NCBI GenBank assembly: GCA_028692955.1
Contig: JAQUWH010000004.1
Coordinates: 14,407-78,406 of the forward strand
Reading direction: 5' to 3'
DNA: 64,000 nucleotides
DNA from: Clostridia bacterium
Lineage (GTDB): Bacteria; Bacillota; Clostridia; TANB77; CAG-465
Each line of letters starts with the position of its first letter. Within the stretch, counting starts at the first letter, position 1. Below the pieces are notes generated by a model, which was not told the DNA's origin, did not search any database, and saw only the letters and a program-made list of their open reading frames with translations. Both the position numbers and the translations under genes were made by a program. Positions 12,512-45,110 of the stretch are shown here, in pieces.

Positions 12512-13195
12512 ATGGAAATTTTAAAAGTAGAAAATTTAGTAAAAACTTATGGAAAAGGGGAAAACAAAGTAGATGCTGTTAATAATATCTCTTTTAGTAT
12601 TCAAAAAGGAGAATTTGTTGCCATAGTAGGAGCTAGTGGTAGTGGTAAATCTACATTATTACATTTATTAGGTGGAGTAGATCGACCTACTTTAGGAAAG
12701 GTAATTATTGATGGCAAAGATATTTATTCTTTAAGTGATGATGATTTAGCCATTTTTAGAAGAAGGAAAATCGGACTTATTTATCAGTTTTATAATTTAA
12801 TACCAATATTAAATGTAAAAGAGAATATTACACTTCCTTGTGATCTAGATGGGAAAGAAACAAATAAAGAAAGATTAATGGAACTTATTAGAACATTAGG
12901 ATTAGAAAAAAGAATTAACCATTTGCCAAATCAATTATCAGGTGGACAACAGCAACGTGTATCAATAGGGAGAGCTATGATTAATAATCCAGCTTTAATG
13001 CTTGCAGATGAACCAACAGGAAATTTGGATTCGAAAGCAGGTGAAGAAATCCTCTCTCTTTTGAAATTATCCAATAAGAAGTTTGAACAGACAGTCATCA
13101 TTATCACTCATGATTTAGATATCGCAAAAGAAGCGGATAGAGTTATTACGATTGAAGATGGAAAGATAGTAAAGGATGAGAAAAACGAAAAATAA
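12512..13195 (+). CDS. ABC transporter ATP-binding protein (MacB/LolD-like)
   Basis: Walker A GASGSGKST, signature LSGGQQQR, Walker B LMLADEPTGNLD. Confidence 0.93.
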   Translation: MEILKVENLVKTYGKGENKVDAVNNISFSIQKGEFVAIVGASGSGKSTLLHLLGGVDRPTLGKVIIDGKDIYSLSDDDLAIFRRRKIGLIYQFYNLIPILNVKENITLPCDLDGKETNKERLMELIRTLGLEKRINHLPNQLSGGQQQRVSIGRAMINNPALMLADEPTGNLDSKAGEEILSLLKLSNKKFEQTVIIITHDLDIAKEADRVITIEDGKIVKDEKNEK

Positions 13196-13210
13196 AAGAG
13201 GGTTGGGAAA

Positions 13211-15751
13211 ATGAATATATTAAGAAAGTTTACGATTCAAAATTTAAAGTTGAATAAAAAAAGAACCATAGTAACAATCATTGGAATTATGCTATCAACT
13301 GCTTTAATTTGTGCCGTAGCAGGAATGGTATCTAGTACGCAAGAAACCTTAATAGAAACAATGAAAACTAGTAAGGGGGATTATCATGCAACTTTTAAGC
13401 AGGTACCTAAAAGTGAGTTGCAATCAATAGAAGAAAATAAAAAGATAGCATCCTATTTTTTAACTAGAACACTAGGCTATGCAAAAGCAACAGAGAGCAA
13501 AAATGAAAGCAAGCCGTATTACTATGTAATGGAATATGATAAAATGGCTTTACAAAAAAGTGCATTCACAATAATAGAAGGAAGAATGCCAGAAAATAGC
13601 AATGAAATAGTAATATCAAAACATATTATTGATAATGCAAAAATAGATTTAAAAATTGGAGATTCCATTACCTTAGATATTGGAACGAGACAATTAACAG
13701 ATGGAACCGCTTTAGAGCAATCTAATTCTTATTTAGAAGAGAAGAACAAAGAAGGAATGGAAGAAGAAATTGTTAATGCCAAATCGAAAATCTATCAAAT
13801 AGTTGGTATTATAGAAAGACCAAGCTATTTATTAGAAGGCTTTTCAGCACCTGGTTATACTATGATTTCTTATCTAGAAAATACAGAAAATATAGCAGAG
13901 GCCAATATTTCTATTACTTATGAAAATCCAAAAGATTTCGATGAAGAGACAGCTCAAATTTTAAAAACAATTAAAAATAATACAGGCATTGAAATAGAAA
14001 AAACAGTCAACTCTGACTTATTAAGATTTCAAGGTGCACTTGGAGAAGCTACCCTAAAAGTACTATATGGCATTGCTACTGTTGTTATTTTAATTATTGT
14101 TGTTAGTAGTGTCTTTGTTATTAGAAACAGTTTTAGTATATCCGTATCAGAAAAAACAAAGCAATATGGAATGCTTACTTCTATTGGCGCAACCAAAAAA
14201 CAAATATCTAAAACTGTATTATTAGAAGGATTATTTATAGGGCTAATTGCCATTCCACTTGGCATTATACTTGGTATTGTTGCTATCAATATATTGATTA
14301 TCATTGTAAATTACTTATTAGGAGATATGTTAAATGGAACCAGCTTTATTTATAGTGTTCCTATTTTACCAATTGTACTTTCTGCAATTATATCTTCTAT
14401 CACCATATATCTGTCTTGTATGATACCAGCAAAAAGAGCTGCTAAGATATCACCAATCGAGGCAATACGTGGTAACAGCGATATTAAAATAAAAGCAAAG
14501 AAATTAAAAACGACTAAATTAACCAAAAAATTATTTGGTATAGGTGGTGTGATTGCTAGTAAAAACTTAAAGAGAAATAAGAAAAAATATAGGACAACAG
14601 TTATATCATTAGTTGTTAGTATTTCTATCTTTATTTCACTTTCATCTTTCTTAGAATATGGAAAAAAGATGACAGGAATGTATTATATGGATATGGATTA
14701 TAATGTAACGGTATCTAGTGGAACAAAAGAACTTTATCAAGAGATTATGAAATTAGATAATATTAAACAATCTTCCTATTCTTATATTACCTCTGCTATA
14801 TTAGATGTTGAGAAATATGGTACGGAATATGGTAAAAAGCTAAATGCTACTTATGGAGATGAGGACCGACCATCAGAAGGCTCTATTTCTGTGATAGCAC
14901 TAAATAATGAATATTTTGATTCCTTTGCAAAAGAGTTAGGCATCAATGAAAAAGACTTAAAAAACGTTGTTATTTTAGAAGATGATCTAATGCGTTCTTT
15001 TGAGGATGGTAGTAGAAAAGTAGAGAATTTCTATCATCTAAATACGGGGGATACCTTTACTTTAAAAATAAAAGGTACAGAAAGAGAAGTAAAAATAACA
15101 AAAAAATCAGACATTAGACCAATGGGTTATGAACAAAGTTATGCAGATGGAGGATGGCTATTTGTATCAGAGGATTTCTTACAAGAACAAGAAAAAAACT
15201 ATGTTTCTAGTTTAAATATTGAGGCCTCTGATGCAACAAAGTTGGAAAATAAACTAACAGAACTAAAATCTCAAAATGAAAGTTATGCAAATATTAATGT
15301 GACTAATTATGAAGCTTATCTAAAACAAGAGCAAAGATTAATTTTATTAATATCTATTTTCTTATATGGTTTTATAGCAGTAATCACATTAATAGGTGTT
15401 ACTAACATCTTTAATACCATTACCACAAATATGATATTAAGAAGCAAAGAATTTGCCAACTTAAAATCAGTAGGAATGACAAGCAAAGAATTTAATAAAA
15501 TGATTCGATTAGAAAGTATTTTATATGGTTTAAAATCACTATTAATTGGTATACCAATCGGGTTATTTGGGTCATATGCTATTTACTATTCATTTGCCAA
15601 TGCTATTGATTTTGGATTTATATTCCCTTGGCAATCAATTTTAATATCAATTATATTTGTATTTGTAATTGTAGGCTTAACGATGAGATATTCCTTAAAT
15701 AAAATTAATAAACAAAATATTATAGATACGATTAGACAAGATAATATATAA
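13211..15751 (+). CDS. ABC transporter permease with two FtsX-type domains and large extracytoplasmic loops
   Basis: 846 aa. It has an N-terminal TM, a large loop and a four-helix FtsX block. A second loop and FtsX block follow. It lies adjacent to the ATPase gene. Confidence 0.9.
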   Translation: MNILRKFTIQNLKLNKKRTIVTIIGIMLSTALICAVAGMVSSTQETLIETMKTSKGDYHATFKQVPKSELQSIEENKKIASYFLTRTLGYAKATESKNESKPYYYVMEYDKMALQKSAFTIIEGRMPENSNEIVISKHIIDNAKIDLKIGDSITLDIGTRQLTDGTALEQSNSYLEEKNKEGMEEEIVNAKSKIYQIVGIIERPSYLLEGFSAPGYTMISYLENTENIAEANISITYENPKDFDEETAQILKTIKNNTGIEIEKTVNSDLLRFQGALGEATLKVLYGIATVVILIIVVSSVFVIRNSFSISVSEKTKQYGMLTSIGATKKQISKTVLLEGLFIGLIAIPLGIILGIVAINILIIIVNYLLGDMLNGTSFIYSVPILPIVLSAIISSITIYLSCMIPAKRAAKISPIEAIRGNSDIKIKAKKLKTTKLTKKLFGIGGVIASKNLKRNKKKYRTTVISLVVSISIFISLSSFLEYGKKMTGMYYMDMDYNVTVSSGTKELYQEIMKLDNIKQSSYSYITSAILDVEKYGTEYGKKLNATYGDEDRPSEGSISVIALNNEYFDSFAKELGINEKDLKNVVILEDDLMRSFEDGSRKVENFYHLNTGDTFTLKIKGTEREVKITKKSDIRPMGYEQSYADGGWLFVSEDFLQEQEKNYVSSLNIEASDATKLENKLTELKSQNESYANINVTNYEAYLKQEQRLILLISIFLYGFIAVITLIGVTNIFNTITTNMILRSKEFANLKSVGMTSKEFNKMIRLESILYGLKSLLIGIPIGLFGSYAIYYSFANAIDFGFIFPWQSILISIIFVFVIVGLTMRYSLNKINKQNIIDTIRQDNI

Positions 15752-15827
15752 TCAAAAGAAATAACATAACACAGGATTTCTATAGAATCACTGTTATGTT
15801 TGATTATAAAAGGTAAATCAGTATGTT

Positions 15828-15860
15828 AACAACCAACTTTTTAGTTGGTTGTTATTTTTT
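15828..15860 (+). terminator. rho-independent terminator after ABC operon
   Basis: Perfect 11-bp stem AACAACCAACT/AGTTGGTTGTT, loop TTTT, then ATTTTTT. Confidence 0.8.
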
Positions 15861-15923
15861 CTTTATAAGTAGTATGGCTTGAGTTTTGTCAAAAAATGTT
15901 GTAAAATATACTTGGTGATAAAA

Positions 15924-16475
15924 ATGAAGAAAGAACAAGTGGAAAAAGATATAGAGAAAATAGAGGAAGAAATAACAGTTAAAAGAAAACAAGCAAAAAA
16001 GACAATGAAAAAAACAGTAGATGAATACAAGAAATTTGCTCTAAAAGGAAATATGATTGACTTAGCAATTGGTGTTGTGATTGGTGGTGCGTTTACGACT
16101 ATTATCAATGCCATCGTCAATACAGTGATCACTCCATTAATTAGCTTGTTAACAAATAAGGTGGATTTATCTACTTTGTTTATCTCGCTTACTGGTGGAA
16201 AATTTGATACGTTAGCTCAAGCTAAAGAGGCAGGAGCAGTCACAATGAACTATGGTTTATTATTAAATGCATTTCTAAACTTCTTTATCGTTTCTGTGGT
16301 GCTATTTATTGTGGTGAAATATATTGATAAAATAAAGAAGAAAGCAACAAAACAAGCAGAAGTAGTCATTAAAGACACAACAAAAGAATGTCCGTATTGT
16401 TTAAGTAAAGTACCAGTTAATGCTATAAAATGTGCATATTGTACGAGTGATTTGGTAGAAAAGGTGGAAGTATAA
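15924..16475 (+). CDS. mscL: large-conductance mechanosensitive channel MscL with charged N-terminal extension and C-terminal zinc-ribbon
   Basis: The MscL core is EYKKFALKGNMIDLAIGVVIGGAFTTII. The C-terminus carries CPYC...CAYC. The start is uncertain: ATG at 15924 with a weak SD, or ATG at 16005 giving a canonical MKKTVDEYKKFALKG N-terminus. Confidence 0.85.
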   Translation: MKKEQVEKDIEKIEEEITVKRKQAKKTMKKTVDEYKKFALKGNMIDLAIGVVIGGAFTTIINAIVNTVITPLISLLTNKVDLSTLFISLTGGKFDTLAQAKEAGAVTMNYGLLLNAFLNFFIVSVVLFIVVKYIDKIKKKATKQAEVVIKDTTKECPYCLSKVPVNAIKCAYCTSDLVEKVEV

Positions 16476-16476
16476 G

Positions 16477-17346
16477 TTGAATAATATTAATATTTTGGTA
16501 GATTGTTTTAATCTAAAATATACATTAGAATGTGGTCAATGTTTCAGGTGGGAAGCAGTAGAAAACAAACCTAATACCTATATTGGTGTGATACATGATA
16601 GAGTTTTAAAAATAACACAAGAAGGTAATTTGTTATCTGTTAGTAGTAATAAAGAAGAAGATTTAGAAGAAATAGTAAAAGAATATTTTGATTTAAATAA
16701 AGATTATAGCAAAATTGAAAAGAAGATAGCAACTTTTGACAAAAAAATAGCTACTGCTGTCAAAAACACCAGCGGTATTAGACATTTAAGACAAGACTTT
16801 TTTGAAACATTACTCTCTTTTATTATTTCAGCAAATAATAATATTCCAAGAATCACAAAATCCATTCAAACGATTTCAAATCGATATGGTACAAAGGTAA
16901 TGTTTGAGGGCAAGGAGTATTCCTTATTCCCAACAAAAGAACAATTAAAGAATGTGACAGTAGACGAGTATAGAGAATGCGGTGTAGGATTTAGGGACCG
17001 TTACTTAAAAGATACGGTAGAAGATCTGCTAAACAATAAAATAGATGTGAGTAACGTGGATAAGTTAAGTACAGAAGAATTAAGAAAAAAACTATTGACA
17101 TTAAAGGGAGTAGGACCAAAGGTAGCAGATTGTATTATGCTATTTTCTTGCAATAAAGATGAGGTGTTTCCTATCGATGTGTGGGTAGAAAGAGTCATGT
17201 CAATTTTGTATTTTAAAGAATACAAAGGGAAGATGACAAAAAAAGATATCATGGAATATGCCACTAAAAAGTTTGGAAAATATGCAGGTATCGTACAACA
17301 ACATTTATTTTATAATATTCGTGAAGGAAAAATAAATTTAGGTTAG
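16477..17346 (+). CDS. ogg: 8-oxoguanine DNA glycosylase (OGG1-type, HhH-GPD)
   Basis: OGG_N motif CGQCFRW, ISANNNIPRIT (compare hOGG1 SSNNNIARIT), HhH LKGVGPKVADCI, catalytic-Asp region FPIDVWV. TTG start. Confidence 0.85.
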   Translation: MNNINILVDCFNLKYTLECGQCFRWEAVENKPNTYIGVIHDRVLKITQEGNLLSVSSNKEEDLEEIVKEYFDLNKDYSKIEKKIATFDKKIATAVKNTSGIRHLRQDFFETLLSFIISANNNIPRITKSIQTISNRYGTKVMFEGKEYSLFPTKEQLKNVTVDEYRECGVGFRDRYLKDTVEDLLNNKIDVSNVDKLSTEELRKKLLTLKGVGPKVADCIMLFSCNKDEVFPIDVWVERVMSILYFKEYKGKMTKKDIMEYATKKFGKYAGIVQQHLFYNIREGKINLG

Positions 17347-17401
17347 CTAATAGTTGCAAAAAAAATGCTAATACTATATAATGTAATCGGAGGTTTATTT
17401 T

Positions 17402-17905
17402 ATGGAAAATAAAGAAATAAATAATACACAAAAAAATACAGGAGTAAATACAATCATTATTATATTATTAATAATTGTTGTTTTAGTAGGAGCATATTTC
17501 ATCTTTTTTAGAAATAGTGCTAATGTCAAATTGGATTTAAACGCTATTTCAAATTCAATTACTACCACTGGTAAATTTGATGAAATGGCTATGATGGACA
17601 TTACAAAAGATGTTGCTACATCAATTTACAACATACCAGAATCTGACATTGAAGAGATTTATGGTAAGATGCCTATGATGAATGTGCAAGCAAGTACATA
17701 CCTTATGATAAAAGCAGTAGATGGTAAAGCAGGAGAGGTAAAACAAAAATTAGAAGAATATGGAAATAAGTATCAAGAACAATGGGAAACCTATCTGCCA
17801 GCACAACTTGAGTTGGTAAAGAATAGAATCATTGTACAAAAAGGTAATTATGTTTATATGATAATTGCTGAAAATGCAACAGAGTTAGAAAAATTGATAA
17901 AATAG
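17402..17905 (+). CDS. membrane-anchored DUF4358-like protein
   Basis: Single N-terminal TM helix plus a ~120-aa domain. The call rests mainly on its position upstream of the MBOAT/DHHW genes, which recalls the common clostridial gene trio. Confidence 0.6.
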   Translation: MENKEINNTQKNTGVNTIIIILLIIVVLVGAYFIFFRNSANVKLDLNAISNSITTTGKFDEMAMMDITKDVATSIYNIPESDIEEIYGKMPMMNVQASTYLMIKAVDGKAGEVKQKLEEYGNKYQEQWETYLPAQLELVKNRIIVQKGNYVYMIIAENATELEKLIK

Positions 17906-17913
17906 TTTTTTAC

Positions 17914-17951
17914 GCTCTCATCGATTAAATTTTGGTGAGAGCATTTTTTTT
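17914..17951 (+). terminator. intra-cluster terminator/attenuator hairpin
   Basis: Stem GCTCTCA/TGAGAGC followed by T8. It lies between the DUF4358-like gene and the MBOAT SD GAGGTG. Confidence 0.6.
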
Positions 17952-17961
17952 GAGGTGCAGT

Positions 17962-19368
17962 ATGGTTTTTAGTAGCGTAGTATTTTTATATATTTTTCTT
18001 CCTATTATGCTTTTTGTCTATTTTATAGTACCAAAGAAATTTAAAAATGCTGTTATGATTATAGCAAGCTTAATTTTCTTTGCCTGGGGCGAGATACGTT
18101 ATATTATTATCATGTTAATACTGGCTGTGATGGACTATTTTTGTGGACAGAAGATTAATCAATATTTTGATAATAAGAAGAAAAAAAGAATATTTTTATG
18201 GATTGATATTGGTGTAAATTTGCTCATATTATTCTTCTTTAAATATTCAGATTTTATCATATCCAATATTAATTTAGTAACAGGTTTTGATATACCGTTA
18301 CTAAACATTCCACTTCCTATAGGTGTATCGTTTAATACATTCCAGTCTTTATCGTATATTATCGATGTATATCGTGGAACAGTAAAGTGTGAAAAGAGTT
18401 TTTATAACTATTTAACCTATACTACTCTATTTCCACAAATCATTGCAGGACCAATCGTTAGATATGAGACTGTGGATGAAGAGTTAGTTGATAAAAAAAT
18501 TAGTATGCAAAATTTTACCAAGGGAATGAAACGTTTTATACTAGGACTTGGTAAGAAAGTACTAATAGCAAATAACGTAGGAAAACTCTGGGCGATTATT
18601 GAAAGTGGAGAATACATCACTTTATCGCCAAGTCTTGCTTGGATAGGATTAATTGCTTTTGGTTTGCAAATCTATTTTGATTTTAGTGGATACTCGGATA
18701 TGGCAATTGGTCTTGCTAATATATTTGGTATGAATTTTAATGAAAACTTCAATTATCCCTATATATCAAAAAGCATCACGGAATTTTGGCGTAGATGGCA
18801 TATGACACTTAGTAGTTGGTTTAAAGATTATATCTATATACCACTAGGCGGAAATAGAAAAGGACTTGCCATACAGATTCGAAATATACTGGTTGTTTGG
18901 TTCTTAACAGGAGCCTGGCATGGAGCTTCATGGAATTTTATGCTATGGGGGCTATATTTTGGTATCATCTTGATACTAGAAAAGTTATTCTTACTAAAAT
19001 TGCTAGAAAAATTACCACGAATTATAAGGCACATATATTCCATATTCTTAATATTAATCAGCTGGCTAATCTTTGCCTTTGAGGATTTAGGGAAAATAGG
19101 AGAATATTTTAAAGCACTATTTAACTTTAATTTTTCTGTTAGTTATAACACAGAAGGAATTTATTATCTAAAGAACTTTGCCTTGATTATCATCATTGGT
19201 ATAATATTATCTACACCACTGATAACAAAGCTATTAAGAAAAATGGAAAGCAAGAGTAAAGTAATCCCTAGTGTTATTACAACATGCTTATATATCGCTA
19301 TCTTCCTATGTTCCACTGCTTATTTAGTAAGTGATTCGTTTAACCCATTTTTGTACTTTAGATTTTAG
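17962..19368 (+). CDS. MBOAT-family O-acyltransferase (AlgI/DltB/PatA-like)
   Basis: Multi-pass membrane protein with MBOAT motifs (FWRRWHMTLSSWFKDYIYIPLGGNR, TGAWHG). The ATG at 17962 follows the SD GAGGTG. Confidence 0.9.
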   Translation: MVFSSVVFLYIFLPIMLFVYFIVPKKFKNAVMIIASLIFFAWGEIRYIIIMLILAVMDYFCGQKINQYFDNKKKKRIFLWIDIGVNLLILFFFKYSDFIISNINLVTGFDIPLLNIPLPIGVSFNTFQSLSYIIDVYRGTVKCEKSFYNYLTYTTLFPQIIAGPIVRYETVDEELVDKKISMQNFTKGMKRFILGLGKKVLIANNVGKLWAIIESGEYITLSPSLAWIGLIAFGLQIYFDFSGYSDMAIGLANIFGMNFNENFNYPYISKSITEFWRRWHMTLSSWFKDYIYIPLGGNRKGLAIQIRNILVVWFLTGAWHGASWNFMLWGLYFGIILILEKLFLLKLLEKLPRIIRHIYSIFLILISWLIFAFEDLGKIGEYFKALFNFNFSVSYNTEGIYYLKNFALIIIIGIILSTPLITKLLRKMESKSKVIPSVITTCLYIAIFLCSTAYLVSDSFNPFLYFRF

Positions 19369-19382
19369 AAAGGAGCAATAAA

Positions 19383-20513
19383 ATGAGTAGTAAATTAAAT
19401 AATAGAATATTTTTCTTTAGTTTTATGCTAATTTGGCTTGTGTTTATTATTTTAAATTTTGTTGTTCCTAATATCTCTTTCTCAGAACAAGAAAATAGGG
19501 CACTGGCAACAGTACCAGATTTCACATTTCAAAAGTTAGTAGATGGCGTCTATGTCAGTCAAATGGATGATTACATTAACGACCACTTTGTATTCAGAAA
19601 TAACTGGATTAAAGCAAAATCTACTTTTGAAAGAGCACTCGGAAAAGATGAAAATAACAATGTGTATATTGGAAAAGATGGCTATCTATTCGAAAAAAAG
19701 TTACTTTCAAAAGAAGATTATAAAAATATAGATAAGGCAGTAGCAAGTATCAACAGTTTAAAACAGAAAATAAACACAAAAACATATTTTATGCTACTTC
19801 CTAATGCGATGAATCTATATAGCGATAAACTACCAGATTATGCTACAACGTATGACCAAAATGAAGTAATGGATTATGTGTATAACCTATTAAATAAAGA
19901 CATTACAAAAATTGATACTAGAACAGTGCTAAACAAAAATAAAGAAGAATATCTATACTTTAAAACAGACCATCATATGACAAGTCTTGGAGCATTACTT
20001 TCCTACAATGAATTTAGAGAAAAAACACTAGCAAAAAAATTAAATGAAATGGACTATGTCAAAATAAGGGTAGCAAGAGATTTTTTAGGAACGCTTGATT
20101 CCAAAGCACAAATACAAAACCAAGAAGAAGATAAGATTGATGTATACTTTAATGAGTCAAATATTAATATTGAATCTGTTTATTATGATGGTAAACTTTC
20201 TAATACGTTATTCAATGAAGATTACTTAACTAAAAAAGATAAGTATTCCTATTTCCTAAACGCTAATAATGCAGAAGTTATCATTAATACGAAAAACAAG
20301 AATGGTAAAAAACTACTAGTAATCAAAGATTCCTATGCTCATATCATGTCACCATTTATGTGTGCAGATTACGAACAAATTGTATTACTAGATCCAAGAT
20401 ATTACAAAGCATCTATCTCAAACTATATCAACAAAAACAATTTTTCAGAGGTGCTATTTATCTATAACGTGGCTAATATCTTAAGTGACATTAGTATTAG
20501 AGGAATTACATAG
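19383..20513 (+). CDS. DHHW-family protein (AlgJ/AlgX/PatB-like extracytoplasmic partner of MBOAT)
   Basis: N-terminal TM anchor and the FKTDHHMTSLGA motif (DHHW-type). Located immediately downstream of the MBOAT gene. Confidence 0.75.
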   Translation: MSSKLNNRIFFFSFMLIWLVFIILNFVVPNISFSEQENRALATVPDFTFQKLVDGVYVSQMDDYINDHFVFRNNWIKAKSTFERALGKDENNNVYIGKDGYLFEKKLLSKEDYKNIDKAVASINSLKQKINTKTYFMLLPNAMNLYSDKLPDYATTYDQNEVMDYVYNLLNKDITKIDTRTVLNKNKEEYLYFKTDHHMTSLGALLSYNEFREKTLAKKLNEMDYVKIRVARDFLGTLDSKAQIQNQEEDKIDVYFNESNINIESVYYDGKLSNTLFNEDYLTKKDKYSYFLNANNAEVIINTKNKNGKKLLVIKDSYAHIMSPFMCADYEQIVLLDPRYYKASISNYINKNNFSEVLFIYNVANILSDISIRGIT

Positions 20514-20552
20514 AGATAAAAAAAGAATAATATAAATAAGATAATATACAAT

Positions 20553-20595
20553 TAACACATTAAAATATTAGTTGACTAGTATTTTAATGTGTTTT
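20553..20595 (+). terminator. rho-independent terminator after DHHW gene
   Basis: 14-bp stem AACACATTAAAATA/TATTTTAATGTGTT followed by a T-run. Confidence 0.75.
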
Positions 20596-20824
20596 TACAT
20601 GCAAATTGACTCATAAAACTATTGTATAATATACAAAAAATATGTGCAAACTATCTATAAATAAGGAGATGAAACAAAAATAAAAAGACAATGTTGAAAA
20701 ATGTCATAAATCGCTTGTAAAAAGATATGGTATACGATAAAATATATAGTATATGTTATATATTTATCAAAAGTAAAAGTAAACAAATAGCAAGAAACAG
20801 TAAGTAAATAGGAGGTTTGAACAA

Positions 20825-22210
20825 ATGAAAACAAACAAGAAAGGTATATCACTGATTACGCTCGTTATAACAATTATAGTTGTAATAATATTAGCTGCAG
20901 CAGTGATATTAACACTAAACAATAATAATCCAATAGAAAATGCTAAAGAGGCAACGTTTAAACAAGATGTATCAACCGTACAAGATGATTTAAATATGTA
21001 TGTATCAAATAAGTATGCAAAAACAAACGGAAACTTTGATTTAACAGCGCTTAACTTAAGTGATACAACAAATCCAAAGATAACAGATGAATTAACATCA
21101 GTATCAAATAGTAAATTGAATGGAAAAGTAGAAGTACAAAATGGTAAACTAGTATATACAGGAACAGATGAGACAGAGAAAAAATGGTTTGGAGAAATCA
21201 TTCAAGGTGGAACAACAGGTGGTGGGAACACACCAAGTATGCCTGAGACTACAACTCCACCAACAACTGCAGTAACAGAAAACACAAAATACACTGATGC
21301 AAGTGGTAAAACAGCGGTAATACCAAAAGGATTTAAAGTATCAAGTATAGAAACAGAACAAAGTATAGATGGTGGACTTGTAGTAATTGCGCCGGATGAT
21401 GTTGGAAGTGAGTTTGTATGGGTACCAGTATCAAATGTAGATGATATGATAGAAGTATCAGATACAACAAATCCAACAGATGCAAAAGGTAAGTTATATA
21501 ACTGGTCAAAGGGAACAACTTATGTAGAAGGAACTCTAAATACGGATACAAATTTAAGGGAACCGGATTACTTAGATAACAATGCTTATGATAATAATGC
21601 AACTTATCTAAAACAAATCAATGACATATTAGCAACAAACCTAACCAATGGAGAGGAATTAAAAGCCTTAATGCAAGAAGACTTAAATAACATCTATTCT
21701 AGTGTAAGAGATAACCATGGCTTTTATATAGGAAGATATGAAACAGGGAATTTAAAAGAAACTAAGGTAGTATCAAAAAAAGATAATACTGATATATCAA
21801 ATCAAACATGGTATACAATGTATGCAAAACAGAAGAAGTATGCAAGTGATATATCAAGTGATAGTGTAGAATCAAATATGATATTTGGCTGTCAGTGGGA
21901 TGCAACAATGAGGTTTTTTGCCAATGATTATGTAGTAAATGCAGAGACATATAACGGAGGAAAATCTGCTTATTTTGGAGGTTCAGTAGAAAAAGCAACA
22001 GGAAGTGTAGAACCAGTTAAAAACATCTATGATATGTCAGGAAATGTAGGAGCTTGGACAGCTGAGGCGAACAGCTCCAGTAGCCGTAGCTTTCGTGGAG
22101 GCTATTACTTTTATAGTGCTAGCCCCCGTTATGCGGCTTACCGTGTCAGTACCAATCCGAACGGTTCTACCAGTTTCTATGGCTCTCGTCTTGCGCTTTA
22201 TATAAAGTAG
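20825..22210 (+). CDS. pilin-like N-terminus fused to FGE-sulfatase/C-type-lectin-fold domain (family member 1)
   Basis: The SD is AGGAGG. The N-terminus is MKTNKKGISLITLVITIIVVIILAAAVILTL, followed by a T/P/G-rich linker. FGE-type motifs are SEFVWVPV, GFYIGRYE, GCQWDATMRF, NIYDMSGNVGAWT, RGGYY and GSRLALYIK. Confidence 0.75.
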   Translation: MKTNKKGISLITLVITIIVVIILAAAVILTLNNNNPIENAKEATFKQDVSTVQDDLNMYVSNKYAKTNGNFDLTALNLSDTTNPKITDELTSVSNSKLNGKVEVQNGKLVYTGTDETEKKWFGEIIQGGTTGGGNTPSMPETTTPPTTAVTENTKYTDASGKTAVIPKGFKVSSIETEQSIDGGLVVIAPDDVGSEFVWVPVSNVDDMIEVSDTTNPTDAKGKLYNWSKGTTYVEGTLNTDTNLREPDYLDNNAYDNNATYLKQINDILATNLTNGEELKALMQEDLNNIYSSVRDNHGFYIGRYETGNLKETKVVSKKDNTDISNQTWYTMYAKQKKYASDISSDSVESNMIFGCQWDATMRFFANDYVVNAETYNGGKSAYFGGSVEKATGSVEPVKNIYDMSGNVGAWTAEANSSSSRSFRGGYYFYSASPRYAAYRVSTNPNGSTSFYGSRLALYIK

Positions 22211-22439
22211 CACTGTCCACTGTTTGCTAAATTATAATTTAGTTGAACAGCCATGGAGACTGTATAGGAATGCATGATGATAAACTATTGATAATAGAAA
22301 GATAACTGTGTAAATGCAAAATGAATTGAACTGCACAGTTATTTTGCCGTATAAGTAGTGTTGTGTGTGTATTTTTGTAATATTTTTTTAACAAAATAGA
22401 AAAAGAAAACATAAAAGTGTAAAAATGCCATGAAATTGC

Positions 22440-24007: not shown

Positions 24008-24688
24008 ATGAGCAAAAGAATGAATGAAGCTGCTAAATTAGTAGAGCCAGGAAAACTTTATGATGCAAAAGAAGCAATTGAAATTGCACTTAAAATGCCT
24101 AAAGCTAAATTTGATGAAACTTTAGAAATGCATATTAAATTAGGTGTTGATTCAAAGCAAGCTGATCAACAAGTTAGAGGCGTTATGGTATTACCTAACG
24201 GAACTGGTAAATCTAAAAAAGTGTTAGTTCTAGCTAAAGGGGATAAAGCAACTCAAGCAAAAGAAGCAGGAGCTGATTTTGTTGGAGATGACGATATGAT
24301 CGAAAAAATCCAAAAAGAAAATTGGTTTGAGTATGATGTTATCGTTGCTACACCTGATATGATGGCATCACTTGGAAAAGTTGCAAGAATTTTAGGACCA
24401 AAAGGCCTTATGCCAAATCCTAAATCTGGAACAGTAACTGTTGATGTAACAAAAGCAGTAAGCGAAATCAAAGCTGGTAAGATTGAATATAGATTAGATA
24501 AAACTAATATAATTCACTGCCCAATTGGTAAAGTATCTTTCGGATACGATAAACTAAAAGAAAACTTTGATGCATTACTTGAAACAGTTATTAAAGTGAA
24601 ACCAGCTGCAGCTAAAGGAACATATTTAAAATCTATTGCTATATCAACAACAATGGGTGCTGGTATAAAAATAAACCCTAGACAGTAG
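24008..24688 (+). CDS. rplA: 50S ribosomal protein L1
   Basis: 226 aa with full-length L1 resemblance ([37 protein letters not shown]). Confidence 0.95.
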
Positions 24689-24806
24689 GTGGAGTAATCC
24701 ATAATTCCTACCGAGGTTAAAATATTGAACGGAATGTAATTCTTGTTTGACATTTACCTTGGTAGTGTCTGGCAAGAATTTTATAGTTTAAGGGGGTGTA
24801 CTAAAA
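24689..24806 (+). promoter_or_regulatory. candidate ribosomal protein L10 leader (autoregulatory 5' UTR of rplJL)
   Basis: The 118-nt rplA-rplJ spacer has complementary segments CTACCGAGGT/ACCTTGGTAG and AATTCTTG/CAAGAATT. Its position matches the Firmicutes L10 leader. No covariance model was run. Confidence 0.45.
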
Positions 24807-25844: not shown

Positions 25845-26200
25845 GGGGGTGTAAGGTTTCGACAGATATCCAGAAATACAAATAGCGAGTAGTGGATTCT
25901 CGTTGGCCACTATAAAAACGAGAACTAAATTTTAAACGCAGATAGAAATGAATTTGCATTAGCTGCCTAGTTGGTAGCTTGTCTTACTATTTTTTGCTAG
26001 AGGGGATAGAAAGGCATCGATTTATCTAGCTAACGAATCTAACTGATCGTTTTAAGGTTAGTGGGTATTTTAAAACGATAGGATAACATATTTTTGTAAA
26101 TGTTTCAGTGTTATTCTATTAAAGCAAACATTTACTGCACTCGGAGAATTTTGTATGAAAGGATTTTTGGACACGAGTTCAATTCTCGTCACCTCCACCA
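25845..26200 (+). ncRNA. ssrA: tmRNA (SsrA)
   Basis: The 5' end is GGGGGTGTAAGGTTTCGAC. The 3' end is GGACACGAGTTCAATTCTCGTCACCTCCACCA, with a tRNA-Ala-like acceptor (G3:U pair) and T-arm. The tag frame GCA GAT AGA AAT GAA TTT GCA TTA GCT GCC TAG (25938-25970) encodes ADRNEFALAA. An extended -10 TGgTATAAT lies at 25825-25833. Confidence 0.9.
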
Positions 26201-38739: not shown

Positions 38740-38805
38740 ATTATTGTTCAAATGAGTGAAAATAATGAAATATAAAATATAAATATAAAATATGAGGTGC
38801 AATAT

Positions 38806-41616
38806 ATGGATAATAGAAGAGGTATATCTCTTATCATGTTAATCGTTACAATCGTACTAGCTTTGATATTAATCATGTCAACTGCTGCTGTTGTTGGTAA
38901 CGCTATTAATAATTCTAGAATTACTACTTTTGCAAGTGATGTTCTTGAAGTAGAGGATGCTGTTAAAAGCTACTATACGCAACATGATGAAATGCCAATT
39001 CTTGGTGAAGATAAGGTTTATTCACAAAAAGAAATAGGAGAACTTGTTCAAAAGGGAAAACAATTAGTTTTATTTGAGGAGGAACTAGATTTAAATGGAG
39101 ATTTTAACGTAAATGGGGAACTTGGAGCTTTTTATATTGTAGATTTGGGAAAAATTGGAATTGAGCAAACATCAAGAGGATTAAAAAAGGATAATAGCGA
39201 TGTGTATGCGGTGTCATATCCCTCTTTTCATGTATATTATTTGAAAGGACTTAATACGAGAAAAACATCCTATTTTTCCATGACATCTAGATTATCTAGT
39301 TTGATAAAGACATTTAATAGAAAAACTACCGCTTTGAGTACACAAGTGACAACACAAATGGTGGAAGGAATTACTGTAAAAAAGATAAATAAAAAATGGA
39401 CAAATGTGCTTGGTGTTACGGTTGAAACTTATATTTCTGATACAAGTGAGTCTTTATATTTAAAAGTGCAAAATGGGGCTGAAGTGCTTATTCCAACAAA
39501 AACTGGTCAAAATGTATTACGATTAGATAGTCTTACAAAAGCATTAGCAGCAGATGGTACAAATTATACTTTAAACACAGATTTAAGTAAATATAACGCG
39601 GCACAACAAAAAGATAAATACATGGAAATTATTAAAAAGAAAAGTGGAAATATTGTTGGTAGAGTAAGAACAAATCTACAAGAATATGAAACAGAGATTC
39701 CTACTTTAAAAGGAGAAATTACACTTTATCCATCAGAAGAATATAACTTAGCTACTTTTTATATCGGTGACAATATTAGTGGCACAAAGGAAGTAAGATA
39801 TGAGTATTTAACAAAATTTAATTCTCAAACCTATCCAGAACCATACTATGCAGGAATAACTACCTATGAACCTTCGTATATCAAGGCAAGAGGGAAAAAG
39901 GCAACAGTGTCAGAAGATGGGTATGTGGAAATAAAAATACCAAAGGAAATAGAAGGAATTGAAGTAAGAGCTTTTGACAATGCGGGAAATGTTAGTAATA
40001 AAATAACGATTAGCAATAAACGTGATATCTATATTGGTATAAATGCCAAATATCTTACTAAAATAAAGAGTGTATTTGACATTGTATTTAATAGTAATTC
40101 TAAAATTACAAGTGCAAAGGTATCCATTAGTAACAATGCTTCTAATTTTACAGATCCCATTATACTTACAGTACCAACTCCTACATCAGGAATCGCTAAA
40201 GTAGAAGATATAAAGTTTAATAGTTTGATTAATTATACTGACACTATCTACGTAAAAATTTCTGCTATCAATGCAAATGGTACTACAGAAACCAGAATCC
40301 AAAAATTCACCTTAAATAATGTACAAACTGATTTGGTTACTCCTGGTATACTAGTAACAAAAAATACCTACTATTTGATGGATGGAAAATTAGCTATGAT
40401 TCCAAAAGGATTTGCTGTATCTACTAAAATAAATGAGCAAAGTATTGATAATGGACTTGTTATCTTAGATGAAATTGGTAATGAGTTTGTATGGGTACCA
40501 GTGGATAATATCGCTGATTTTGAAAGAGTAGATTGGCCAGTACAATTACGTACTGTTGCAGAAACGCCAGAAGATGAGGCAACAACAGAATATATGGCGA
40601 TGAAAGAAAGTGTCAGTTTATATAAAGGCTATTATATAGCAAGATATGAAGCAGGGATACCAAGTACCACATCTTCGACAACGATTAATCATAACACTAA
40701 AGTAGACGGAAGTATCAAACCAGTATCAAAAAAAGGAGCAGGCGTTTGGAACTTTATATCTTGGGGAACATCAGCTAACACAGTGAGTCCTGGAAATGGA
40801 GCAGTAACAGTAGCAAGAGCAATGTATCCAAATGATAGTAGAAATCAAACAGGAGTTATATCAACATTATGCTATGATGTACAATGGGATATGGCATTAA
40901 GGCTTATCGAGAAAAAGGACCCAATATATCCGGGAGATAGCACAGGAAAAGGAAATTATACAGGAAAAATTTCTACTACAGGCGATAAATCGGAATATCA
41001 AAGAAATAACATATATGATATGGCAGGGAATATGTTTGAATATACAATGGCATCTTACAATTCTAATACAAAAGTTGTACGTGGTGGTAGTTATATTTGG
41101 GTAGATAGTAAAGTTCCGGCAGGTTATCGTGATGGGCGCTCATACGCAGACATCTATGAAAGTTTAGGCTTTCGTGTAGCATTATATATTAAACCTGATA
41201 TGAGTGATGCAGTAAATGTTGATCCAATTTATAAAACATCAAATGCAATGGACATACTTTGTAAGCTTAGTACTCGAAATTTCTATAAATATAACGATGA
41301 GGAGGCGTATGTAGCAATCGTATACTTTACTTCTGCAACTTCAGAGAGTGATTATATGGCACCTTTGTTAGTTGGTCCAACATCATCCTCTGTTGTGTAT
41401 TGTACAGACCATGATATGCAACCACTTTCAGCAACGGGTAGTTTTACATATAACGGTAAAACATATTACTATTCTAGTACTGGTCAATGGATGTCAACAA
41501 CAGTTTATACAACCAATCGAGTTCTTTTAAATACTGCATCCACAAGATATATTAATTCAATTTCTGGCATGGAAGATGCTGCGAGAGACTTATTAAAGAA
41601 ATGTCTTAATTATTAA
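38806..41616 (+). CDS. modular pilin-like surface protein: pilin-like N-terminus + head, Ig-like modules, one FGE/CLec-fold module, unassigned C-terminal module (family member 2)
   Basis: The SD GAGGTG is followed by MDNRRGISLIMLIVTIVLALILI. There is an Ig-like region containing VRYEY. FGE motifs are NEFVWVPV, GYYIARYE, CYDVQWD, NIYDMAGNMFEYT, RGGSY and GFRVALYIK. The C-terminal module contains YCTDHDMQPL. Confidence 0.75.
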   Translation: MDNRRGISLIMLIVTIVLALILIMSTAAVVGNAINNSRITTFASDVLEVEDAVKSYYTQHDEMPILGEDKVYSQKEIGELVQKGKQLVLFEEELDLNGDFNVNGELGAFYIVDLGKIGIEQTSRGLKKDNSDVYAVSYPSFHVYYLKGLNTRKTSYFSMTSRLSSLIKTFNRKTTALSTQVTTQMVEGITVKKINKKWTNVLGVTVETYISDTSESLYLKVQNGAEVLIPTKTGQNVLRLDSLTKALAADGTNYTLNTDLSKYNAAQQKDKYMEIIKKKSGNIVGRVRTNLQEYETEIPTLKGEITLYPSEEYNLATFYIGDNISGTKEVRYEYLTKFNSQTYPEPYYAGITTYEPSYIKARGKKATVSEDGYVEIKIPKEIEGIEVRAFDNAGNVSNKITISNKRDIYIGINAKYLTKIKSVFDIVFNSNSKITSAKVSISNNASNFTDPIILTVPTPTSGIAKVEDIKFNSLINYTDTIYVKISAINANGTTETRIQKFTLNNVQTDLVTPGILVTKNTYYLMDGKLAMIPKGFAVSTKINEQSIDNGLVILDEIGNEFVWVPVDNIADFERVDWPVQLRTVAETPEDEATTEYMAMKESVSLYKGYYIARYEAGIPSTTSSTTINHNTKVDGSIKPVSKKGAGVWNFISWGTSANTVSPGNGAVTVARAMYPNDSRNQTGVISTLCYDVQWDMALRLIEKKDPIYPGDSTGKGNYTGKISTTGDKSEYQRNNIYDMAGNMFEYTMASYNSNTKVVRGGSYIWVDSKVPAGYRDGRSYADIYESLGFRVALYIKPDMSDAVNVDPIYKTSNAMDILCKLSTRNFYKYNDEEAYVAIVYFTSATSESDYMAPLLVGPTSSSVVYCTDHDMQPLSATGSFTYNGKTYYYSSTGQWMSTTVYTTNRVLLNTASTRYINSISGMEDAARDLLKKCLNY

Positions 41617-41629
41617 AAATATTGAGTGA

Positions 41630-41664
41630 AGTGATTAAATTAGAATATAATTTAGTCACTTTTT
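41630..41664 (+). terminator. rho-independent terminator between cluster genes 1 and 2
   Basis: 12-bp stem AGTGATTAAATT/AATTTAGTCACT (one G:U pair), loop AGAATAT, T4. Confidence 0.7.
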
Positions 41665-41770
41665 CTTAATATTTGAATTGCTAGTATTAAATTAGCAAAA
41701 AGACTTGAAAAAAAAGTAAAAACCGTATAAAATTAAGATGTGATATAATTGTTACAAAAAGAGGGATAAT

Positions 41771-44700: not shown

Positions 44701-45085
44701 TTTGGTAACTGGAACATCATGGGATACTGTAATGAAATGGATAGACAGTAGTGGTAAAAATGTTATGACAAACAGTGCATCATGGGGAAATTATTATAAT
44801 AGTACATTTATATATACAAATAGTGTGGGATTAAATGTTACTAAACCAATTAATAGCGCTGCAAAAATTCCTACTGGAAGCACTGAATATACTATTTCGA
44901 ATAATATATATGATATAGCAGGTAACGTAAATGAATGGAGTCTAGAAAAAAATAATACTAACTATATTATTCGTTCTGGGTATTATGGAGACATGACACC
45001 AGCTGCTAATCGTGCGGCATATATTATTAATACTCTAACTAATGAAAATTTGGGATTTAGATTAATGCTTTATGTAAAAATATAG
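41771..45085 (+). CDS. modular pilin-like surface protein with two tandem FGE/CLec-fold modules (family member 3)
   Basis: The N-terminus is MRLKKGITLIVLILTIILALILV, and the head and Ig modules are alignable with member 2. FGE module 1 has NQFVWVPV, GFYIARYE, CYDVQWD, NISDMSGNFWEWT and RGGDF. FGE module 2 has SEFVWVPV, GFYVGRYE, SWDTVMKW, NIYDIAGNVNEWS and GFRLMLYVK. Confidence 0.75.
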   Translation: MRLKKGITLIVLILTIILALILVTATTLAIGNSVENARLAAFANDLKEVKDAVKVYYMENDFFPTDADNMEALSQKEIFTLIKNKVIFKQDLSVNNDYNENDDLGAFYKIDLKVLGIEQTIRGIKENGQEDDIYVVSYPSMQIYYIAGVKAKSNTYYSLSTRLTDVVKVVNAPTEYPDNDIQSAYGMTVKKLKKVWTNTLNISIEAQMAATEGLYLKVQGGTEKKITTTVGQNIFKLDSFDKIYSQNTNTILNTNIPATDINNFNNSIQDNKYIEIIKKDEEKASVVGTIKVSLSNYETNIPVKASDSILTPGEEYNTVTFKAFDATSGVREVRYEYLKKFDERSTLPSSYYDGVTEYDPSYIKARGKKAEIGEDGTVKIDIPKEIEGIEIRIFDRAGNVSDKILQSNKRNIWVGIERVIFSADMARFLFTFNSKTNITEASAQISGDGKTYSKSTLLSVPNVSNNIASIEATFTDINIQDTIYVKVSAKNASGDTETRVKKFNVTGEAVKDNIGKLMSYSQTIDGRAAGTYQNPIIPAGFAAVNTVDSKWDAKTGPEYNNGLVIEDAIGNQFVWVPVPNIANFKRMDWAKQNYTVAQTPEDETTAEYIAMKQSVTENKGFYIARYEAGIPGTTSSVTTNHNTPTDGSIKPVSKQGVGVWNFITWGVINNTVNPGNGAVTLARSMYPSNAENHSGVISTLCYDVQWDATLKFMQGKDSEYITNSTGKGNYKPNPMAVTGSKEEYKVCNISDMSGNFWEWTMASYGSTDRVLRGGDFTWFPTDRPVSYRGSLDFSGTGGQYYTMRPTLYIKGTGEGTKNPSDLIGLNQAEKSRKPYIPTQFEWVSGTTVDTGYVIRGSDGSEFVWVPVDGTKIKYEKWCTTGLSYTVVTNVPDKDYPTGITSANEKVIVDKAGGFYVGRYEAGVPEGQTKIDGASAATSNVYGKPVSKKGAISWTNIDYIRANGNAISYISNTEVTSGLVTGTSWDTVMKWIDSSGKNVMTNSASWGNYYNSTFIYTNSVGLNVTKPINSAAKIPTGSTEYTISNNIYDIAGNVNEWSLEKNNTNYIIRSGYYGDMTPAANRAAYIINTLTNENLGFRLMLYVKI

Positions 45086-45110
45086 TTAAGAATAATTAAG
45101 AGGTAAAAAT

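What the first reader, a model, noticed from the sequence alone, without database searches (positions are those of the whole stretch)
22061..22200. DGR variable-region-like compositional island at the 3' end of the solitary FGE-domain gene
Seen in the sequence: the last ~140 nt of ORF 20825-22210 switch abruptly to ~49% G+C (74 of 150 nt counted by hand over 22061-22210), against a visibly ~30% background. A falls to roughly 18%. Sixteen of 45 codons are NNC (AAC AGC TCC AGC AGC GGC TAC AGC CCC TAC GTC ACC AAC ACC TTC GGC) and only one codon ends in A. Every Arg is CGT and every Leu is CTT, whereas AGA and TTA are used in the rest of the gene. The island starts right after the NIYDMSGNVGAWT motif and ends at GSRLALY. 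Established knowledge: in DGR targets with CLec/FGE folds (for example Bordetella phage Mtd and Treponema TvpA), the variable region occupies exactly this C-terminal stretch. Variable codons derive from AAY codons of the template repeat, and scaffold codons avoid adenine. Inference: this segment may be a present or former DGR variable region served by a remote template repeat and reverse transcriptase. That would imply a hypervariable, pilin-like-anchored receptor-binding protein. The equivalent segments of the three cluster paralogs are only mildly GC-enriched, with fewer NNC codons.
Basis: partly seen in the sequence, partly recalled or inferred. Interest (0 to 1): 0.85.

Follow-up and report, generated by a model that had tools for sequence, protein, structure and literature searches.

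The report
Orphan retroelement-written variable region
The last ~140 bases of a surface-protein gene look like they were rewritten by a diversity-generating retroelement (a known bacterial system that hypermutates binding proteins), but the retroelement is not in this 64-kb window, so whether the segment is still being diversified is unknown.

Summary
Bases 22056-22195 are the highest-G+C 140-nt stretch of the whole window (0.53 against a mean of 0.30). Adenine falls from 43% to 18% while T does not fall. Only 1 of 46 codons ends in A, against 205 of 412 in the rest of the gene. The gene (20825-22210) encodes a pilin-like N-terminus plus a C-type-lectin/FGE-fold domain. The best structural match of that domain is TvpA, the Treponema DGR variable protein. 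In eight related Clostridia loci, the collinear C-terminal stretch is a proven DGR variable region. Each has a template repeat (TR) nearby whose mismatches fall almost only at adenines (for example 17 of 18), next to Msl, Avd and RT genes and an RT-14 RNA. The window segment also shares their 3' junction and the flanking CACTG(A/T)CCACTG motif. So it is a DGR-written variable region (about 0.9). No TR, RT, Avd or RT-14 RNA exists in the window, and the rest of this genome could not be retrieved. Relatives include both frozen relic VRs and orphan VRs rewritten from more than 10 kb away. Active versus relic therefore stays open. This is a new member of a known kind, of moderate-to-low interest.

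The parts
20825..22210 (+). Target gene (461 aa; protein P0001): pilin-like N-terminus, Thr/Pro-rich linker and a C-terminal CLec/FGE-fold domain that ends in the variable region
   Evidence: ORF and translation. The homolog family has more than 3000 members, mostly in uncultured Clostridia.
20825..20968 (+). Pilin/pseudopilin-like N-terminal segment (KKG-ISLITLVITIIVVIILAAAVILTL...NAKEATFK), conserved among the paralogs of this genome
   Evidence: Only weak, sub-threshold matches: GspG TIGR01710 at E=0.0013 (18.8 bits, cutoff 88.85); geopilin and PilE1 chains at E=0.013-0.024. A Logan contig from the same sample (L085) breaks at 20968 inside this repeated segment.
21260..22207 (+). C-type-lectin / FGE-sulfatase-fold ligand-binding domain (residues 146-461)
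   Evidence: AlphaFold model with mean pLDDT 91.1 and pTM 0.92. Foldseek top hit is TvpA 2y3c (E=1.2e-5, prob 1.00), then PvdO, CarF and FGE, Mtd 1yu2 (E=3.9e-4) and TaqVP 5vf4 (E=1.9e-3). A family profile hits SUMF2 1y4j at E=2e-4 over profile positions 391-449.
22064..22200 (+). DGR-type variable region (VR). The 5' end is set by analogy with GAGGCGAA in the L014 VR. The 3' end is at the GCGCT-T-TA junction.
   Evidence: Composition and codon statistics. Collinear, without indels, with the verified TR/VR of L083, and 54-67% DNA identity to verified TRs/VRs of L014 and others.
22193..22210 (+). IMH-like 3' junction of the VR (GCGCTTTATATAAAGTAG), including a short palindrome CTTTATATAAAG and the stop codon
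   Evidence: In verified pairs, homology ends at VR ...CT-T-TA against TR ...CT-C-TAATA. The window end GGCTCTCGTCTTGCGCTTTATATAAAGTAGCACTG is almost the same as the L014 VR end GGCTCTCGTCTCACACTTTATATAAAGTAGCACTG. The small hairpin appears in DNA folds of the window and L079.
22211..22222 (+). Family-specific VR-flanking motif CACTGTCCACTG, immediately after the stop codon
   Evidence: Active relatives carry CACTGACCACTG (L083), CTCTGACCACTG (L079), CACTGACCACTA (L014) and CACTGAACACTG (L065). The motif is present in 10 of 27 VR-like C-termini against 2 of 28 non-VR-like ones (p=0.0095), with a 2% background; it is absent after TRs.

Best explanation
Bases 22064-22200 are a variable region written by a diversity-generating retroelement (DGR).

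How it works (inferred): a DGR reverse transcriptase, helped by Avd and a MutS-like protein, copies an adenine-rich template-repeat (TR) RNA into cDNA and misincorporates at template adenines. The cDNA replaces the 3' end of the gene. Homing is guided by the CT-T-TA junction and the CACTG(A/T)CCACTG element just past the stop codon.

This accounts for the composition. Template AAY codons become random NNY codons, and scaffold codons that avoid A (CGT, CTT, GCG, GGC) are copied unchanged. In a 30%-GC genome the result is an A-poor, GC-rich island.

The product is a cell-surface protein whose CLec-fold binding face can be re-randomised.

Shown: the composition, the fold, homology to proven VRs, and the shared cis motifs. 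Inferred: that retrohoming wrote this particular copy.

The cassette is not adjacent, nor anywhere within 22 kb upstream or 42 kb downstream. This copy is therefore a non-adjacent target. I lean slightly (about 50:40) to it still being addressable by a cassette elsewhere in the genome rather than being a frozen relic.
For: Composition and codon statistics.

Fold: the best structural match is the DGR variable protein TvpA; Mtd and TaqVP also match.

Family: eight related loci (L008, L014, L033, L065, L079, L081, L083, and L011 with a truncated TR) carry the target followed by Msl, Avd (PF22296) and an RT (IGNYTSQ...YLDD), then the TR and RT-14 RNA. TR/VR mismatches at TR adenines are 21/22, 15/16, 20/21, 18/19, 16/17, 25/26 and 17/18.

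In the sister lineage (54% identical), 31 protein clusters are near-identical except in this exact stretch. Column entropy there is 0.9-1.8 bits, against less than 0.3 over most of the protein.

The window VR is collinear with these VRs and shares their junction and flanking motif.

For continued addressability: the flanking motif is intact, and only the family-typical GGA codon ends in A. In relatives L010 and L029, recent paralogs (96% identical bodies) have heavily different VRs with no cassette within 10 kb of either. Non-adjacent and remote DGR targets are documented: 45 of 372 DGRs in PMC5758913.
Against: No TR, RT, Avd, Msl or RT-14 RNA is in the window. There is no YxDD motif in any frame and no Rfam hit. 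tblastn and nhmmer find nothing. In the A-tolerant scan, the best non-self site has 30 incompatible positions of 129, against 1 of 126 in the positive control.

This genome's own RT and TR could not be found or retrieved.

In all eight verified cases the cassette is immediately downstream of its target; here secE and nusG follow.

In the sister lineage the non-adjacent paralog is frozen. Its VR is identical in 14 protein clusters, and only 12 of its 27 differences from the TR lie at A.

Decayed cassettes occur in the family. No same-species sequence exists in the databases to test hypervariability; the nearest homolog is 55% identical.
Confidence: 0.9

Rival explanations
1. Frozen relic (a sub-case of DGR origin). 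The VR was written by a DGR in the past, but the cassette has since been lost or its TR has diverged. The segment now evolves by ordinary point mutation.
For: No cassette or remnants lie in 64 kb. The sister lineage's non-adjacent paralog (L002) keeps an NNY-rich, GC-elevated VR yet is invariant across 14 clusters, and it mismatches the TR at non-A sites and by a 3-nt indel. Cassettes in relatives decay: a truncated TR in L011, Msl+Avd only in L035, Msl only in L053. A paralog in the same genome (P0002, L001) has a partly decayed VR, with TGG, ATA, TTA and TCA codons and G+C of 0.44. Of 20 VR-like C-termini with at least 4 kb of downstream DNA, 15 lack a cassette.
Against: The window VR shows no drift toward the genome's A/T-ending codons. 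Its flanking motif matches that of active relatives better than the relics do: TACTG-CCACTG in L002 and TACTGTACACTG in L001. Orphan paralogs rewritten from more than 10 kb away exist in the family.
Confidence: 0.4
2. The segment is a recombined or horizontally acquired piece from a homolog in a higher-GC organism, unrelated to any retroelement.
For: The compositional boundary is abrupt at about 22061 and composition returns to background after 22210.
Against: Only A is depleted; T rises from 24% to 31%, which a GC-rich import would not produce. The boundaries coincide with the TR/VR homology boundaries of verified relatives. The residues are restricted to the AAY-accessible set. The same island occurs at the same place in many low-GC relatives. 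No near-identical DNA was found in any collection scanned.
Confidence: 0.04
3. The codon and composition shift is a by-product of selection for a Ser/Tyr/Gly/Arg-rich binding loop or for local translational or mRNA features, with no templated mutagenesis.
For: The segment is rich in S, Y, G and R, as binding surfaces often are.
Against: Amino-acid choice does not explain the synonymous choices: CGT 5/5 against AGA/AGG in the body, AGC and TCC against TCA, and GCG/GCT against GCA. It also does not explain the shared non-coding flanking motif. The two cluster paralogs with the same fold motif in the same window show no such bias.
Confidence: 0.03

Closest known systems
TvpA and the other targets of the Treponema denticola DGR
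   Same: A bacterial, non-phage surface protein with a CLec/FGE-type fold and the VR in the C-terminal ~45 codons. It is the best structural match (2y3c, E=1.2e-5). That DGR also serves seven related targets scattered across the genome (PMC5758913).
   Different: TvpA is a lipoprotein; this protein has a pilin-like N-terminal helix. Sequence similarity is marginal (E=0.49). For Treponema the TR and RT are known; here they have not been found.
Mtd of Bordetella phage BPP-1 (the prototype DGR target)
   Same: CLec fold with a C-terminal VR, AAY-codon diversification, and a 3' homing junction (IMH) with a VR-specific flanking element. Structural match 1yu2 at E=3.9e-4.
   Different: Mtd is a phage tail-fibre protein with an adjacent cassette. 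Here the setting is a chromosomal housekeeping neighbourhood (MBOAT/DHHW upstream, secE-nusG-rplK downstream). The flanking element is a 12-nt CACTG(A/T)CCACTG motif rather than the GC-rich hairpin described for BPP-1 (the latter from my own knowledge).
Gut Bacteroides DGRs that diversify type V pilus adhesins, with Avd and Msl accessory genes (bioRxiv 10.1101/2024.11.15.621889)
   Same: Host-associated bacterial DGRs acting on pilus-type surface proteins. The accessory set is the same (Avd plus MutS-like Msl) as in the relatives' cassettes.
   Different: A different phylum (Clostridia) and a different anchor. The anchor here is a type IV pilin/pseudopilin-like N-terminal helix, weakly supported, rather than a type V pilin.
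Non-adjacent or remote DGR targets (Wu et al. 2018, PMC5758913) and VR-bearing 'G-type pilin' proteins (PMC11661182)
   Same: A target with no cassette nearby: 45 of 372 DGRs have non-adjacent targets and ten have targets more than 100 kb away. A GspG-type pilin domain holding a VR has been listed as a rare target class.
   Different: Those assignments rest on a TR match with A-to-N differences only. That match is missing here.

Membership tests
DGR variable region / DGR target gene | A template repeat in the same genome that matches the VR, with differences essentially only at TR adenines | tested here: inconclusive
   Absent from the 64-kb window and from L001 (same sample): blastn, A-tolerant pattern and A-tolerant scan (best non-self 30/129 incompatible against 1/126 in the control). 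The rest of the genome was not retrievable. Public collections gave 0 hits.
DGR variable region / DGR target gene | A DGR-type reverse transcriptase (plus Avd or another accessory gene) in the same genome | tested here: inconclusive
   None in the window or L001. The RT search returned more than 3000 family members, none attributable to this MAG.
DGR variable region / DGR target gene | The VR lies at the C-terminal end of a CLec/FGE-type fold | tested here: met
   Model pLDDT 91; top hit TvpA, also Mtd, TaqVP and FGE. SUMF2 profile hit at E=2e-4.
DGR variable region / DGR target gene | Adenine-depleted VR made of NNY variable codons and A-free scaffold codons, with residues limited to the AAY-accessible set | tested here: met
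   A is 18% against 43%; A-ending codons are 1/46 against 205/412 (p=1e-11); no K/Q/E/M/W in 43 residues (P=8e-5).
DGR variable region / DGR target gene | Homology and collinearity with VRs whose TR and RT are verified | tested here: met
   Seven TR/VR pairs in relatives have 15-25 adenine-specific mismatches each. The window VR aligns without indels to the L083 scaffold and shares the L014 VR end.
DGR variable region / DGR target gene | A VR-specific 3' homing junction (IMH-like) and flanking recognition element | tested here: met
   The CT-T-TA junction and CACTGTCCACTG at 22211-22222 are the same as in active relatives and absent after TRs. Their function is inferred, not tested.
DGR variable region / DGR target gene | Hypervariability of the VR among strains or reads, confined to TR-adenine positions | not testable with these tools
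   No same-species sequence is available; the nearest homolog is 55% identical. Reads cannot be accessed. The feature is met in the sister lineage.
Type IV pilin / pseudopilin (class III signal peptide) | Prepilin leader ending in Gly, followed by a hydrophobic N-terminal helix with Glu at +5, and a match to pilin models above threshold | tested here: inconclusive
   KKG-ISLITLVITIIV... has the Gly and the hydrophobic helix but no Glu at +5. GspG TIGR01710 scores 18.8 bits against a cutoff of 88.85. Pilin chains in the PDB match at E=0.01-0.02. No pilus assembly genes were found among the neighbours examined.

The most novel reading that the evidence does not exclude
An uncultured Clostridia lineage may use one chromosomal DGR to re-randomise, in trans, a whole repertoire of pilin-like-anchored CLec surface proteins scattered among housekeeping genes. 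Target choice would be specified by a short family-specific CACTG(A/T)CCACTG element after the stop codon, rather than by adjacency or the canonical GC-rich IMH-plus-hairpin. The window gene would be one such remote, currently active target.
Probability: 0.3. Interest if true: 0.55.

Novelty: new member of a known kind. Interest (0 to 1): 0.35.

Why it matters
If the segment is still being rewritten, this organism can change the binding specificity of a surface protein within a population. That bears on adhesion, on phage or host recognition, and on how MAG consensus sequences should be read at this locus.

The case is also a useful annotation lesson. In low-GC genomes, a DGR variable region can be recognised from composition alone even when the cassette is far away or lost. 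Such orphan VRs appear to be the majority state in this protein family (15 of 20 informative loci).

It adds no new mechanism. DGRs, CLec-fold targets, Msl/Avd accessories, RT-14 RNA and non-adjacent targets are all already described.

Tried and rejected
**Looking for a TR copy in the window**
- blastn, an A-tolerant IUPAC pattern and a custom A-tolerant scan found only the VR itself.

**Looking for an RT or cassette in the window**
- A YxDD motif scan found nothing.
- tblastn with the relatives' Msl, Avd, RT and small ORF found nothing.
- nhmmer and Rfam searches for the RT-14 RNA found nothing.

**Retrieving the rest of this genome**
- Exact-protein look-ups of P0001, P0052 and P0055 failed.
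- Look-ups of the window genes at 60085-62919 and of nusG, secE and rplA also failed.
- Only three Logan contigs from the same sample were obtained (L001, L084, L085), and none carries a cassette.
- The window genome is not in genome contigs: not even the VR itself matched.

**Scanning collections with TR-type degenerate patterns**
- Viral, genome and JGI metagenome collections gave 0 hits.

**Finding this MAG's RT by homology**
- The search returned 3282 RTs. The top 120 are all at least 69% identical to the query and none is named as PHP54.

**Searching with the VR peptide alone**
- The word index found nothing, not even P0001 itself, so this result is uninformative.

**Structure**
It was replaced by a 67-sequence model.

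**A conserved DNA hairpin after the VR**
- A small palindrome occurs in the window, L014, L079 and L033 but not in L083 or L065, so it is not a family-wide feature.

**A shared TR for P0001, P0052 and P0055 (same genome)**
- I considered this from the protein sequences and rejected it. Their lengths differ, and the conserved Pro (CCG) of P0001 aligns with Cys in P0055. This is reasoning on the sequences, and no DNA was available for the other two.

Full report
**1. The observation**

The ORF 20825-22210 (+) encodes 461 aa. Its last ~140 nt form a sharp compositional island.
- G+C reaches 0.52 at 22050-22199, against about 0.29-0.35 in the rest of the gene.
- Bases 22056-22195 are the single highest-G+C 140-nt stretch of the 64-kb window (0.529; mean 0.303, sd 0.052). 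They exceed even the tRNA-Leu locus.

- 74 of 150 G+C over 22061-22210;
- A is 17.9%, against 43.0% in the rest of the gene;
- 16 NNC codons and one A-ending codon (GGA);
- Arg is CGT 5/5, against AGA/AGG in the body;
- Leu is CTT 2/2, against mostly TTA in the body.

The shift is statistically strong. Third-position A is 1/46 against 205/412 (p = 1e-11), and third-position C is 16/46 against 29/412 (p = 7e-7).

The shift is loss of adenine, not general GC enrichment. T rises from 24% to 31%, and AT skew flips to -0.26 against a window mean of +0.10. The 43 residues from N to L contain none of K, Q, E, M or W, which make up 19.8% of the rest of the protein (P = 8e-5). These are exactly the residues that A-mutagenesis of AAY codons cannot produce (established DGR knowledge).

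**2. What the protein is**

Pfam gives no significant hit for the protein itself. Other evidence places it:
- A profile of the family hits the FGE paralog SUMF2 (1y4j, E=2e-4) over profile positions 391-449.
- The same profile weakly hits pilins at the N-terminus (E=0.013-0.024).
- NCBIfam GspG matches far below its cutoff.

A first structure model was poor. A second model, from a 67-sequence alignment of residues 146-461, is confident (pLDDT 91.1, pTM 0.92). Its best PDB match is the Treponema denticola DGR variable protein TvpA (2y3c, E=1.2e-5, prob 1.00). Next come FGE-family proteins, Mtd of phage BPP-1 (1yu2, E=3.9e-4) and the Thermus DGR protein TaqVP (5vf4). The 'FGE/CLec fold' claim is therefore confirmed. 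The 'pilin-like anchor' is only suggestive.

**3. Comparative evidence**

The protein has thousands of homologs, nearly all from uncultured Clostridia.

Eight related loci carry a complete DGR cassette immediately after the target homolog. The order is:
- a MutS_I-like (Msl) gene;
- bAvd (PF22296, E=4e-12);
- an RT of about 340 aa with IGNYTSQ...YLDD;
- the TR;
- an ~85-nt element that is Rfam RF02921 'RT-14 RNA' (87.5 bits);
- a small SSB-like ORF.

In seven of these loci, the TR matches the last ~125-143 nt of the target gene, with mismatches almost only at TR adenines: 21/22, 15/16, 20/21, 18/19, 16/17, 25/26 and 17/18. In L011, the eighth, the TR is truncated.

In the sister lineage (54% identical to the window protein), 31 protein clusters from different metagenomes are almost identical except in exactly this stretch. 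Column entropy there is 0.9-1.8 bits, against less than 0.3 over most of the protein.

The window segment is collinear with the sister lineage's TR/VR scaffold: R..RG, 15 residues to R, P at +5, then GSR (sequences). It is 54-67% identical in DNA to the TR and VR of L014.

It also shares the 3' junction. Its end, GGCTCTCGTCTTGCGCTTTATATAAAGTAGCACTG, compares with L014's GGCTCTCGTCTCACACTTTATATAAAGTAGCACTG. In verified pairs, homology ends at VR CT-T-TA against TR CT-C-TAATA.

Directly after the stop codon sits CACTGTCCACTG (22211-22222). Active relatives have CACTGACCACTG and close variants. The motif occurs in 10 of 27 VR-like C-termini against 2 of 28 non-VR-like ones, with a 2% background, and it is absent after TRs.

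**4. What is missing**

The window has no part of a DGR cassette:
- no YxDD motif in any frame;
- no match to the relatives' Msl, Avd, RT or small ORF;
- no RT-14 RNA;
- no TR candidate. In an A-tolerant scan, the best non-self site has 30 incompatible positions of 129, while the positive control finds its TR with 1 of 126.

Downstream of the gene lie secE, nusG and the rplK-rplA-rplJ-rplL cluster. Upstream lie mscL, ogg, DUF4358, MBOAT and DHHW genes.

The genome is an NCBI MAG (locus tags PHP54_, sample SRR22315505). It has at least three further paralogs: P0002, P0052 and P0055. I could not retrieve its other contigs.
- Exact-protein look-ups mostly failed.
- The three Logan contigs obtained hold no cassette.
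- The genome is not in the genome collection.
- TR-type patterns found nothing anywhere.
- An RT search returned more than 3000 relatives, none attributable to this MAG.
- No same-species sequence exists for a strain comparison.

**5. Active or relic?**

The relatives show both outcomes.

Relic:
- The second paralog of the sister lineage lies beyond the dcw cluster that follows the cassette. It keeps an NNY-rich VR that is identical in 14 protein clusters. Its VR differs from the TR at 27 sites, only 12 of them at A, plus a 3-nt indel, and its flanking motif is damaged (TACTG-CCACTG).
- Cassettes decay in the family: L011, L035 and L053.
- P0002, in the window's own genome, has a partly decayed VR.

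Addressed from a distance:
- L010 and L029, in one MAG, have bodies that are 96% identical. Their VRs differ heavily, and neither has a cassette within 10 kb.
- Several MAGs carry 2-5 targets on one scaffold.
- The literature documents non-adjacent targets for 45 of 372 DGRs, some more than 100 kb away (PMC5758913).

The window VR shows no drift toward A/T-ending codons and has an intact flanking motif. I put DGR origin at about 0.9. Within that, about 0.5 is 'still addressable' and about 0.4 is 'frozen relic'.

**6. Rivals**

- Import from a higher-GC homolog does not explain the A-specific depletion with rising T, the AAY-restricted residue set, the coincidence with VR boundaries, or the recurrence of the island in many low-GC relatives.
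- Selection on amino-acid composition does not explain the synonymous codon choices or the non-coding motif.

**7. Comparison with the known, and verdict**

This is a CLec-fold DGR target of the TvpA/Mtd kind. It belongs to a gut and anaerobe Clostridia family whose cassettes use the known Avd and Msl accessories (PMC5758913; bioRxiv 10.1101/2024.11.15.621889) and the known RT-14 RNA. VR-bearing GspG-type pilin proteins have been listed as a rare target class (PMC11661182).

It is a new member of a known kind. The two defining features, a TR and an RT in the same genome, remain untested. The mildly new aspects are three: the pilin-like anchor, the orphan position among housekeeping genes, and the family-specific flanking motif.

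Interest is 0.35.

Noticed in passing
L083:13663-13804 (also L008, L011, L014, L033, L065, L079, L081, directly after each TR): The conserved element after the TR in relatives' cassettes is Rfam RF02921 'RT-14 RNA' (87.5 bits, E=7e-13). Its hairpin shows compensatory changes (8 of 19 predicted pairs). It would be a handy marker for locating the cassette in the full genome, and it is absent from the window.
   Followed up: partly
L083:13855-14103; L011:5647-5928; L014:15129-15380; L081:14155-14409; L065:7909-8307; L079:1612-1872: A small ORF (82-132 aa, N-terminus MN.(I/V)..GK(I/V)) is conserved in these DGR cassettes, usually after the TR/RT-14. It has weak SSB/OB-fold similarity (PF00436 in 5 of 8 members, best E=0.002). 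It may be an additional single-strand-binding accessory. I did not check whether it corresponds to a described accessory class.
   Followed up: partly
L002:11237-11366 versus the TR at L083:13539-13664: The second paralog of the sister lineage has a frozen VR. The VR is identical in 14 protein clusters and differs from the TR at 27 sites, only 12 at adenines, plus a 3-nt indel. It still looks VR-like in composition. This shows that the compositional signature outlives DGR activity.
   Followed up: yes
L011:5297-5432; L035:11488-12204; L053:1117-1353: These loci hold decayed cassettes next to VR-bearing targets. L011 has a TR truncated to about 35 nt, L035 keeps Msl and Avd but no RT, and L053 keeps only Msl.
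   Followed up: partly
L010 and L029 (same MAG, CANRSN01); also L040/L053, L005/L007/L027 and L012/L013/L016/L028: These are multi-target genomes. Recent paralogs (L010/L029: 18 differences in 486 nt of body, 13 of them at third positions) have heavily different VRs on one scaffold, and there is no cassette within 10 kb of either. Overall, 15 of 20 VR-like C-termini with at least 4 kb of downstream DNA are orphans.
   Followed up: partly
window 38797-46676: This is a cluster of three large proteins (939, 1104 and 521 aa) with pilin-like N-termini. Two carry the YDxxGN CLec motif, but their VR-equivalent segments are not VR-like (G+C 0.37 and 0.28, with 13 of 46 A-ending codons) and they lack the flanking motif. 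The function of the cluster is unknown.
   Followed up: partly
window 20825-20968 / L085 end: The Logan contig from the same sample (L085 = window 12924-20968, 99.7% identical) ends inside the conserved pilin-like N-terminal coding segment shared by the paralogs. This is presumably a repeat-induced assembly break. The 19 mismatches and 4 gaps in 8 kb point to strain heterogeneity in the sample.
   Followed up: partly
window 22226-22243: A perfect AT-rich palindrome, CTAAATTATAATTTAG, lies just after the flanking motif (7-bp arms, folds as a hairpin). It could be a terminator-like or recognition structure. It is not conserved in the relatives examined.
   Followed up: no
window 25845-26200 and 24658-24793: A tmRNA gene (tag ADRNEFALAA) and an L10 leader lie downstream of the target gene. 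These are ordinary housekeeping features and confirm a chromosomal, non-phage context.
   Followed up: no
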